From assembly GCA_043764095.1 (NCBI GenBank), contig JAYUKX010000056.1, positions 74,175 through 138,174 on the forward strand: a stretch of 64,000 nucleotides of DNA. Reading direction: 5' to 3'. A model generated the notes under the pieces. The model made no database searches. It was not told where the DNA came from and saw only the letters and a list, made by a program, of their open reading frames with translations. Origin of the DNA: Chitinophagales bacterium. Its GTDB lineage: Bacteria > Bacteroidota > Bacteroidia > Chitinophagales > Saprospiraceae. Positions 46,171 through 46,402 of this stretch are shown piece by piece; position 1 is the stretch's first letter; each line of letters begins with the position of its first letter. The position numbers and the translations under genes are program-made.

Positions 46171-46402
46171 TTAATGATCTGCCAACCACGGAGTGGTTAA
46201 ACTTGAATAGCCCCGAATGAAATTCGGGTTCGATGTGTAAGTGTATGTTGAAGAACCCTGAAAGGGGTTCAACGTAATGAAACGCTCACAATACGTTGAA
46301 GTTCAACTACTCCGTAGTTGTTAAAAAACACCGCATTCCCAAACCCCGAATTTCATTCAGGGCTACTCAAGTTTAACCACTCCGTGGTTGGTAGATCATT
46401 AA
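46171..46402. repeat. 232-bp composite palindromic element (REP/BIME- or MITE-like) between convergent genes
   Basis: The two 58-bp inverted arms (46171-46228 and 46345-46402) differ at 3 positions. The arms and centre are built from small hairpins: AACCAC-GGA-GTGGTT, CCCGAAT-GAA-ATTCGGG, GAACCC-TGAAAG-GGGTTC and CAACTAC-TCC-GTAGTTG. Confidence 0.65.

What the first reader, a model, noticed from the sequence alone, without database searches (positions are those of the whole stretch)
46171..46402. 232-bp composite palindrome built from tri-loop hairpins, one of which shows a compensatory base change
Two 58-bp arms (46171-46228 and 46345-46402) are inverted copies differing at 3 positions. They flank a 116-bp centre that is itself made of hairpins. 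The 15-nt unit AACYAC-GGA-GTRGTT occurs three times. It appears as AACCAC GGA GTGGTT (46184-98) and as its complement in the other arm (46375-89). In the centre it appears in inverted orientation as CAACTAC TCC GTAGTTG (46304-20). The central copy has C-to-T in the 5' half and the matching G-to-A in the 3' half, so the pairing is preserved. That is evidence of selection for the hairpin rather than for the primary sequence. Other units are CCCGAAT-GAA-ATTCGGG and GAACCC-TGAAAG-GGGTTC, and the words GTTGAAG and GTTCAAC recur so that alternative pairings are possible. Hairpin units in alternating orientation recall REP/BIME arrays, whose REPs are recognised by RAYT transposases and carry a GTAG. 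The 58-bp terminal inverted repeats are also compatible with a MITE. The element lies between the convergent ends of the metzincin paralogue and the SGNH-like gene, so it may also serve as a bidirectional transcription or RNA-stability element. I saw no other copy in this window.
Basis: seen in the sequence. Interest (0 to 1): 0.6.

Follow-up and report, generated by a model that had tools for sequence, protein, structure and literature searches.

The report
Hairpin-built mobile repeat in Saprospiraceae
The palindrome is real. It is one copy of a previously undescribed, non-coding, multi-copy repeat family of Saprospiraceae and other Bacteroidota, built from small hairpins that evolution keeps paired, and it comes and goes between closely related strains.

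Summary
The inverted arms are 63 nt long and 94% complementary, and the whole element spans about 46135-46430.

It is not a unique palindrome. It is a tail-to-tail inverted dimer of a 93-nt, three-hairpin unit (46182-46275 on +, 46299-46391 on -), flanked by terminal inverted modules that carry a TAATGTCGTCAAYTTARCGAT-like motif.

I found 71 units at 42 sites in the fetched loci. They come from Saprospiraceae/Chitinophagales MAGs, Belliella and Saccharicrinis. Fifteen of the loci lie in a genome about 96% identical to the window's. All sites are intergenic, and none shares a neighbouring gene.

Covariation supports the local hairpins:
- 16 of 21 pairs show changes on both sides.
- 95% of cells are paired, and no shuffle reaches that value.
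- Folding is strand-specific: about 90% of loops are GNA triloops, and G·T outnumbers A·C 46 to 15.

The long arm-to-arm pairing is not conserved. Copies are present or absent between strains about 4% apart, and no target-site duplication is seen.

My best reading is a REPIN/BIME-like or MITE-like non-autonomous element, probably handled as a single strand by an unidentified enzyme. No conserved GTAG tag, RAYT gene, terminator or Rfam family was found. I rate it a new member of a known kind, of moderate interest.

The parts
46135..46183 (+). Left terminal module. It begins TTTCGGCGTGG and contains the terminal inverted-repeat motif TAATGCCATCAATTTAATGAT at 46158-46178.
   Evidence: Flank alignment of 18 full copies. 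The motif scan finds it only at the two ends of this element in the window, with 3 mismatches each. Homology with the element-free relative L045 stops at 46137|46138.
46182..46275 (+). Unit 1, sense on the + strand. It runs: hairpin H1 AACCAC-GGA-GTGGTT (46184-46198), linker AAACTTGAATAG, hairpin H2 CCCCGAAT-GAA-ATTCGGG (46211-46228), a 25-nt spacer, hairpin H3 AACCC-TGAAAG-GGGTT (46254-46269), then CAAC.
   Evidence: Covariance model R1, 85.7 bits, E = 1.8e-13. Sequence read.
46268..46300 (.). Central palindrome TTCAACGTAATG / CAATACGTTGAA, formed where the 3' tails of the two units meet.
   Evidence: the repeat finder pair I10: 12-nt arms, 92% complementary. The same centre is conserved in the full-length copies.
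46299..46391 (-). Unit 2, sense on the - strand. It runs: H1' AACCAC-GGA-GTGGTT (46375-46389), linker, H2' CCCTGAAT-GAA-ATTCGGGG (46344-46362, with a T·G wobble), spacer, then H5 CAACTAC-GGA-GTAGTTG (46304-46320, the copy with the compensatory change).
   Evidence: Covariance model R1, 98.1 bits, E = 8e-16. Exact pattern matches.
46390..46430 (-). Right terminal module. It carries the inverted copy of the terminal motif (TAACATCGTCAACTTAATGAT read on the - strand, 46395-46415). It is shortened relative to other copies. The outer end is degenerate, and homology with L045 resumes at about 46435.
42475..46122 (+). Left neighbour, not part of the element: a 1215-aa reprolysin-like (M12B) protease with a T9SS C-terminal sorting domain. 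Its stop codon lies 12 nt before the element.
   Evidence: Pfam PF13583, PF16184 and PF18962.
46481..47347 (-). Right neighbour, not part of the element: a conserved 288-aa protein with no Pfam match, convergent with the protease gene.

Best explanation
The palindrome is the core of a copy about 290 bp long (about 46135-46430) of a non-coding, non-autonomous, interspersed repeat family of Saprospiraceae and other Bacteroidota.

Its building block is a 93-nt unit: hairpin, RAAC-NTGAATAGCC linker, hairpin, spacer of about 25 nt, hairpin, RAAC. Here two units lie tail to tail in inverted orientation, between terminal inverted modules that carry a TAATGTCGTCAAYTTARCGAT-like motif. The dimer is copied as a whole, and its two halves are different subtypes.

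Shown:
- Many copies exist, at unrelated intergenic sites.
- Copies are gained and lost between strains only about 4% apart.
- No target-site duplication is present.
- Selection keeps the three small hairpins paired on one defined strand, with GNA triloops.

Inferred:
- The element is moved in trans by an enzyme that reads the folded single strand. This would most likely be top-strand DNA, as with REP/REPIN-RAYT or IS200/IS605-type HUH transposases. The conserved RAAC next to the hairpin and the terminal motif would serve as recognition words. I give this sub-claim about 0.4.
- Any effect on the flanking genes, such as mRNA 3' structure, would be a by-product.
For: Family and copy number:
- An exact 21-mer from the hairpin and linker hits 40 stretches of GTDB genomes. 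Fifteen are in GCA_013297575.1, which is 96% identical to the window over the flanking genes.
- 17 full-length copies are 72-92% identical to the window's copy.
- The covariance model finds 71 units at 42 sites, 26 of them '><' dimers.
- Summed contig depth over the element is 150-600, against about 21-40 in the flanks, in four metagenomes. Many contigs run on into unlike flanks.

Non-coding and non-autonomous:
- All sites are intergenic.
- Copies share no neighbouring protein, and recurrent neighbours are housekeeping genes.

Turnover:
- The orthologous gap in relatives holds other sequence or only a fragment of the element.
- The window's own population lacks the copies at L024 and L037.

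No target-site duplication:
- None is seen at those junctions, nor in four recent copies of another lineage.
- An unrelated 83-nt insert in the same alignment shows a TA(TA) duplication, which serves as a positive control.

Structure:
- 21 pairs are 95.3% paired, against 85.1% in shuffles (0 of 500 reach it). Sixteen pairs show changes on both sides. Slid controls give 21-53%.
- The H2 hairpin was not constrained when the seed units were chosen, and it covaries most.

Strand specificity:
- About 90% of loops are GNA. G·T outnumbers A·C 46 to 15, p = 9e-5.

The dimer is the replicating unit:
- Each half's best match (83-98% identical) lies in another locus. Its own partner is only 68-81% identical.

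Conserved ends:
- The same terminal motif flanks diverged units in a second lineage.
Against:
- A crude HUH-motif regex over all loci found nothing.
- The GTAG and CGTC tags that define described REP superfamilies do not abut the stems.
- Filled and empty site pairs are not clean. Between 20 and 70 nt of flanking sequence differ as well, so the exact mobile unit and its termini are not fixed. Recombinational turnover rather than transposition could account for part of the polymorphism.
- G·T over A·C asymmetry and GNA loops fit RNA folding as well as single-stranded DNA.
- Copy number in the window's own genome is inferred only from metagenome contigs of matching depth.
Confidence: 0.75

Rival explanations
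1. It is a classical MITE. On this reading it is an internally deleted insertion sequence, cut and pasted as double-stranded DNA by a DDE transposase that binds the terminal inverted repeats. The internal hairpins would be cargo or incidental.
For: - Its size (about 290 bp), lack of coding capacity and multi-copy state fit a MITE.
- It has conserved terminal inverted modules with a 21-nt motif.
- Two other short elements carry the same terminal motif with a different interior (L054 and L061).
- It shows presence/absence polymorphism.
Against: - No target-site duplication appears at any junction examined, whereas an unrelated MITE-like insert in the same alignment shows one.
- Units also occur alone, as '<>' pairs and as 70-nt tandem arrays without these termini, including in other orders.
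- The hairpins are under strand-specific structural selection, which a DDE mechanism does not require.
- No parent IS was seen in any locus.
Confidence: 0.15
2. It is a functional structured RNA element, such as an mRNA 3'-end stabiliser or terminator, or a small RNA. On this reading its copies persist because each one acts on its neighbouring genes.
For: - Covariation, conserved single-stranded linkers and an excess of G·U-type wobbles are typical of RNA families.
- In the window, each convergent gene would read into a sense unit.
- 7 of 9 single units lie sense to the upstream gene.
Against: - No Rfam family matches.
- No U-tract terminator is present.
- Dimers show no preference for gene 3' ends. 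Four lie in divergent promoter gaps.
- Neighbouring genes are unrelated.
- Truncated and rearranged copies are common.
- Rapid gain and loss between near-identical strains does not fit a conserved regulatory RNA.
- The 7-of-9 orientation trend is not significant.
- No RNA runs hold the sequence, so transcription remains untested.
Confidence: 0.08
3. It is a unique, fortuitous palindrome, or a locus-specific bidirectional terminator between the two convergent genes.
For: It occurs only once in the 64-kb window and sits between convergent genes.
Against: - Dozens of related copies exist elsewhere.
- The element is absent or replaced at the orthologous site in relatives 88-96% identical, while the flanking genes are kept.
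- No terminator-like site is found.
Confidence: 0.01
4. It is an integron attC-like or other site-specific recombination site, suggested by the GTTRRRY / RYYYAAC words next to the hairpins.
For: GTTGAAC and GTTAAAC, 3' of each hairpin, fit GTTRRRY. Recombination at attC sites is strand-specific and structure-dependent (established knowledge of integrons).
Against: - The two words are in the opposite order to that of an attC site, GTTRRRY then RYYYAAC, on both strands.
- Copies are scattered one per gap rather than forming co-oriented cassette arrays.
- No integrase or cassette context is seen.
Confidence: 0.01

Closest known systems
REP / REPIN / BIME elements of Proteobacteria, mobilised by RAYT (IS200/IS605-type Y1 HUH) transposases
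   Same: - Short extragenic hairpins in many copies.
- An inverted doublet is the replicating unit.
- Mosaic arrays with conserved linkers.
- Dimers are heterodimers rather than perfect palindromes.
- No target-site duplication.
- A conserved tetranucleotide lies beside the stem.
- Hairpin pairing is maintained by compensatory change.
   Different: - No GTAG tag, and no CGTC tag abutting the stem.
- The unit is a 93-nt three-hairpin module, not a single 20-40-nt hairpin.
- It has extra terminal inverted modules of about 45 nt.
- The host phylum is Bacteroidota.
- No RAYT gene has been identified, because the genome could not be searched.
CGTC-tagged REPs (Di Nocera et al. 2013, PMC3733652)
   Same: They are reported in Bacteroidetes, occur mostly as inverted dimers, and have no dedicated transposase. 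The terminal motif here also contains a conserved GTCGTC.
   Different: The described CGTC REPs have the tag directly beside an 8-9-bp stem, 4-5-nt loops and a CCA tail. Here CGTC lies 16-18 nt from the nearest 6-bp hairpin, the loops are GNA triloops, and the tail is RAAC.
Bacterial MITEs such as Correia/NEMIS (Neisseria), ERIC/IRU, RUP and BOX
   Same: They are 100-400 bp, non-coding, intergenic and strain-polymorphic. They have terminal inverted repeats, fold into long hairpins, and BOX has a modular build.
   Different: Correia and most MITEs show a target-site duplication (for example TA) and relate to a known IS family. Here there is no duplication and no parent IS, and the internal hairpins rather than the long stem are the conserved structure.
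PATEs / IS200-IS605 derivatives
   Same: They depend on folded single-strand hairpins at their ends, make no duplication, and recognise a short guide word next to the hairpin.
   Different: PATEs lack terminal inverted repeats and insert 3' of a fixed tetra- or pentanucleotide. No such target word could be defined here.

Membership tests
REP/REPIN-RAYT system | Short extragenic hairpins in many copies per genome | tested here: met
   71 units lie at 42 intergenic sites. Fifteen loci are in one MAG that is 96% identical to the window's genome.
REP/REPIN-RAYT system | Conserved GTAG tetranucleotide abutting the stem | tested here: not met
   GTAG appears only where the stem has the T-A variant (15 of 52 units). 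The conserved flanking word is RAAC on the 3' side.
REP/REPIN-RAYT system | An inverted doublet is the unit that replicates | tested here: met
   26 of 42 sites are '><' dimers. Each half is most similar to the corresponding half in another locus (83-98%), not to its own partner (68-81%).
REP/REPIN-RAYT system | A cognate RAYT (Y1 HUH) gene in the genome, typically flanked by the repeats | not testable with these tools
Within the window and the loci fetched by then (through L047), a crude HUH regex and neighbour comparisons found none.
MITE (DDE-transposase derived) | Small, non-coding, multi-copy, with terminal inverted repeats | tested here: met
   Terminal modules with a TAATGTCGTCAAYTTARCGAT-like motif lie in inverted orientation at both ends, in two lineages.
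MITE (DDE-transposase derived) | Target-site duplication flanking the insert | tested here: not met
   No direct repeat is seen at the junctions of window vs L045, L024 vs the empty contigs, L037 vs L062-L069, or the four copies L055-L060. A different insert shows a TA(TA) duplication.
MITE (DDE-transposase derived) | A parent IS with the same termini | tested here: inconclusive
   None was found among the 8 metagenome loci hit by the terminal motif or the 40 genome loci. A whole-genome search was not possible.
CGTC-tagged REP (PMC3733652) | CGTC directly beside an 8-9-bp stem, a 4-5-nt loop and a CCA tail | tested here: not met
   CGTC lies in the terminal motif, 16-18 nt from a 6-bp stem with a 3-nt loop, and the tail is RAAC.
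Intrinsic (bidirectional) terminator | G+C-rich hairpin followed by a U tract, located at gene 3' ends | tested here: not met
   No terminator-like site lies in 45900-46700. Family dimers occur in 15 tandem, 4 divergent and 3 convergent gaps.
Any Rfam RNA family | Match to a curated covariance model | tested here: not met
   Only chance-level hits were returned: CncR1 (E = 0.49) and mir-1781 (E = 0.023), both far below their gathering scores.
Integron attC site | R'' (RYYYAAC) ... R' (GTTRRRY) order, in co-oriented cassette arrays | tested here: not met
   The order is reversed on both strands, and copies are scattered singly.

The most novel reading that the evidence does not exclude
The 93-nt three-hairpin unit has strand-specific GNA triloops, invariant RAAC and AATAGCC words, and spreads across several Bacteroidota orders. 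It could be the substrate or guide of an undescribed Bacteroidota-specific single-strand nucleic-acid system. One possibility is a REP-like element served by a transposase or recombinase that is not a GTAG-reading RAYT and leaves no duplication. Another is a domesticated structured RNA or DNA module with a cellular role.
Probability: 0.12. Interest if true: 0.7.

Novelty: new member of a known kind. Interest (0 to 1): 0.45.

Why it matters
Interspersed palindromic repeats and their transposases are well studied in Proteobacteria but hardly at all in Bacteroidota.

This family gives a defined, searchable 93-nt model with strong covariation and strand-specific folding. It also provides clear filled and empty sites in natural populations. 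That makes it a good handle for finding the enzyme that moves such elements in this phylum.

The family also has practical effects. Contigs in these metagenomes end or branch at the element, so it is a likely cause of the fragmented Saprospiraceae MAG assemblies. The only differences between two assemblies of this locus fall inside the element. Its insertion sites differ between strains about 4% apart, so it could serve as a strain marker.

Tried and rejected
- **Viral contigs.** The one hit (L047) is a chance match inside coding sequence. It scores 18.9 bits with the model.
- **RNA evidence.** No RNA runs hold the sequence, and the runs returned behave as DNA metagenomes.
- **Literature.** No paper contains the hairpin sequence or describes a Saprospiraceae repeat of this kind.
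- **Transposase partner.** A crude HUH/Y1 regex over all six-frame ORFs found nothing. An all-against-all BLASTP of 232 neighbouring ORFs found no shared mobile gene. Pfam assigned the few recurrent neighbours to DUF4407, thioredoxin-like, rhamnosidase and ABC-auxiliary families.
- **Target-site duplications.** Reading the junctions by eye gave nothing consistent.
- **The L006 site.** The close relative carries the same copy, and the more distant relatives have lost synteny, so this site gave no empty allele.
- **attC-like reading.** Rejected because the core words are in the wrong order and there are no cassette arrays.
- **Other palindromes in this window.** Those noted by earlier readers (about 17.7, 19.5 and 21.9 kb) are not members of this family.

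Full report
**1. The observation**

The region was read directly. The repeat finder reports inverted arms at 46166-46228 and 46345-46407. They are 63 nt long and 94% complementary, with 116 nt between them.

The 15-nt word AACYACGGAGTRGTT occurs exactly three times, at 46184-98 (+), 46305-19 (-) and 46375-89 (-). About 0.27 matches are expected by chance at up to 2 mismatches, and no shuffle reaches the observed count. The CCCCGAAT-GAA-ATTCGGG hairpin and its inverted partner are there.

Both strands fold about 17 standard deviations better than shuffled sequence. The window contains no second copy.

**2. Surroundings**

The element fills most of the 358-nt gap between two convergent genes. 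One is a 1215-aa reprolysin-like protease with a T9SS sorting tail (42475-46122, +). The other is a conserved 288-aa protein without a Pfam match (46481-47347, -). The T9SS tail places the organism in Bacteroidota.

The same contig is on record in an ENA freshwater/biofilm metagenome assembly. No sigma-70-like promoter or U-tract terminator is detected in 45900-46700. No Rfam family matches.

**3. It is a family**

I scanned one genome per GTDB species with AACYACGGAGTRGTTRAACTT and obtained 40 stretches. Most come from Saprospiraceae/Chitinophagales MAGs. Fifteen lie in GCA_013297575.1 (JAAFHO01). Others lie in Belliella calami, a Saccharicrinis and two Flavobacterium-like MAGs.

Seventeen loci hold full-length relatives that are 72-92% identical to the window's copy. 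JAAFHO01 is 95-96% identical to the window over the flanking genes, which is about species level.

Summed contig depth over 46164-46398 is 150-600, against about 21-40 in the flanks. Many contigs run on into unlike sequence. This summed depth includes other organisms. Several contigs of the window organism's own depth class (18-20x) also carry family members. I take this as indirect evidence for further copies in the window's genome.

**4. Anatomy**

Comparing copies shows that the basic module is a unit of about 93 nt:
- a hairpin, usually AACCAC-GGA/GAA-GTGGTT and sometimes GACCCT-GAWA-GGGGTC;
- the linker RAAC-NTGAATAGCC;
- a second hairpin whose stem varies (CCCCGAAT/ATTCGGGG, CCCTGAAT/ATTCAGGG, CCATGAAT/ATTCATGG, CCTCGGAT/ATCCGAGG, CCCCGGGT/ACCCGGGG and others);
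- a spacer of about 25 nt;
- a third hairpin of the first type;
- RAAC.

The window's element is two such units, tail to tail: 46182-46275 on + and 46299-46391 on -. Their tails form the small central palindrome.

Outside the units lie terminal modules of about 45 nt in inverted orientation. Their conserved core is TAATGTCGTCAAYTTARCGAT. In the window this core occurs only at 46158-46178 (+) and 46395-46415 (-), with three mismatches each. The element is therefore about 290 bp long, larger than the reported 232 bp.

A metagenome scan with the terminal motif found a second, more G+C-rich lineage with the same plan: terminal module, unit, centre, inverted unit, terminal module. Its stems are different again.

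Units also occur singly (Belliella, L022, L033), as '<>' pairs, and as tandem arrays with a 70-nt period (L011, L004, L019).

**5. Structural selection**

I aligned 52 curated units (A1). RNAalifold predicts the three local hairpins, and 14 of 17 predicted pairs show compensatory change.

For the 21 pairs I named:
- 95.3% of cells are paired, against 85.1% in column shuffles (0 of 500 reach the observed value).
- 16 pairs show changes on both sides.
- Sliding the partners by 1-3 columns gives 21-53% paired.

One caveat applies. The seeds were picked with a letter-class pattern for the first and third hairpins. The middle hairpin was not constrained, and it covaries most (6 of 8 pairs).

On the 71 model-aligned units, about 90% of loops are GNA triloops on the unit's sense strand: C-GGA-G, C-GAA-G, T-GAA-A and T-GCA-A. 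G·T wobbles outnumber A·C mismatches 46 to 15, p = 9e-5. Folding of one defined strand is therefore what is conserved.

From my own knowledge, C-GNA-G loops are the class of unusually stable DNA mini-hairpins such as d(GCGAAGC). This is a lead towards single-stranded DNA, not a test.

The long arm-to-arm pairing is not conserved. In many copies the left outer hairpin is of the GACCCT type and the right one of the AACCAC type. Within JAAFHO01, the two halves of a dimer are 73% identical on average, against 77% for halves of different dimers. Every half has its best match (83-98%) in another locus. The dimer is thus an asymmetric element copied as a whole. The 63-nt near-perfect arms are a peculiarity of the window's copy.

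**6. Context**

All 42 sites are intergenic by a simple ORF call. Of the 22 dimers with both neighbours called, 15 lie between tandem genes, 4 between divergent genes and 3 between convergent genes. That is close to random expectation, so there is no link to gene 3' ends.

Single units lie sense to the upstream gene in 7 of 9 cases, which is not significant. Neighbouring proteins are unrelated between sites. The few recurrent neighbours are housekeeping families. A crude HUH-motif search found nothing.

**7. Mobility**

At the window's own site:
- A relative about 87-90% identical over the flanking genes (L045) keeps homologous flanks up to ...AATATTTT and from GATGAAAYC... onward. In between it carries two unrelated palindromes.
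- The 96% relative (L042/L043) has a 674-nt gap holding a 126-aa ORF, a fragment of this family and a different small palindrome.
- A relative about 88% identical (L046) has a partial copy.

Conversely, I laid contigs of the window's own sample on two JAAFHO01 copies. A 3.9-kb contig at 19x skips L024 443-835, with 23 other letters in its place. A 56.9-kb contig at 21.9x skips L037 2015-2413, with 64 other letters in its place.

I fetched orthologous empty loci for L037 (L062-L069) and aligned them. The right junction is sharp. The left side differs over a further stretch of about 70 nt. No direct repeat flanks the insert.

In the same alignment an unrelated 83-nt palindromic insert does show a TA(TA) duplication. 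The method can therefore detect a duplication where one exists. Four recent copies in the second lineage end at GTGAGGG...CCCTCAC, again without a duplication.

A third copy (L006) is shared with a close relative.

**8. Interpretation**

Several lines point to a non-autonomous mobile repeat of the REPIN/BIME or MITE kind:
- multi-copy state;
- intergenic scatter;
- lack of coding capacity;
- dimeric and modular build;
- rapid gain and loss.

Three features favour recognition of a folded single strand over a double-strand DDE cut-and-paste route: the missing duplication, the strand-specific hairpin selection, and a conserved word beside the stem. The conserved terminal motif could be a second protein-binding site.

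The identity of the enzyme is inference only. RNA-level function cannot be excluded, because no RNA data exist. The lack of context bias and the fast turnover argue against it as the reason for the family's existence.

**9. Comparison and novelty**

The family fails the defining tag tests of the described REP superfamilies, GTAG and stem-adjacent CGTC (PMC3733652). It also fails the duplication test of classical MITEs, and it matches no Rfam family. I found no paper containing the sequence.

In kind it is still a bacterial interspersed palindromic repeat. I therefore file it as a new member of a known kind. It is of moderate interest, mainly as an entry point to an unknown mobilising enzyme in Bacteroidota.

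Noticed in passing
window 46205, 46211, 46219, 46236: The ENA contig of the same strain (L041) is identical to the window over 6,867 nt except for four transversions. All four lie inside the element's left arm. They could be an assembly or polishing artefact in a repeat, cross-talk with other copies, or real heterogeneity.
   Followed up: partly
L021 6908-6938 and 7054-7083; L027 1708-1735; L043 3942-3969; L046 1082-1112 and 1224-1254; L013 6723-6752: A second small palindromic repeat, (CCTAT)TGTCGGGGCGA...GCCCCGACA(ATAGG), recurs in relatives. It often abuts pieces of the family studied here and resembles that family's outermost TGTCGGCGTGAC end. None is in the window.
   Followed up: partly
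L045 about 3868-4078 (orthologous gap of a relative about 87-90% identical): In place of the element, this relative carries two unrelated palindromes. One is AAGAACTTGGAC...GTCCAAGTTCTT. The other is a hairpin with a stem of about 25 bp, GGCTGTCGCTTAAACACATGGATA...TATCCATGTGCTTAAGCGACAGCC. This gap appears to be a hot spot for different palindromic inserts.
   Followed up: no
L042/L043 4125-4505: The 96%-identical relative has a 126-aa ORF without a Pfam match in the orthologous gap. The window lacks it.
   Followed up: partly
L064 and L069, about 80 nt upstream of the 395-aa gene (gene at locus 1501-2688): An unrelated 83-nt palindromic insert (GGTTTTGTAC...GTACAAAACC) is present in two of seven orthologous loci and is flanked by a TA(TA) duplication. 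It looks like a classical MITE, and I used it as a positive control for detecting duplications.
   Followed up: partly
L054 about 716-976; L061 about 2949-3209: Two short elements carry the same TAATGTCGTCAAYTTA terminal motif but a different interior without the hairpin units. The terminal motif may therefore define a wider group of elements.
   Followed up: no
L016, L018, L026 (JAAFHO01) and L030 (JBEAVK01), about 130 nt on either side of the element: Four copies in two species share a further outer layer of inverted repeats (GTGTCGATTATT...). In their left terminal module the GTCGTCA core lies in the opposite orientation. This could be nesting in another palindromic element or a longer subfamily.
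   Followed up: no
L021 6827-6940; L043 about 3940-4050 (- strand); L046 about 1220-1340 (- strand): A different composite repeat reuses the AACCAC-type hairpin followed by ATCGGATTGAGCAAATATTCAGT...CCAAAGTGT and the TGTCGGGG palindrome. The hairpin modules are therefore shared between repeat families.
   Followed up: no
window 17708-17876, about 19538-19695, 21830-21983: Palindromic elements flagged by earlier readers in this window are not members of this family and lack its terminal motif. The genome carries several unrelated palindromic repeat types.
   Followed up: partly
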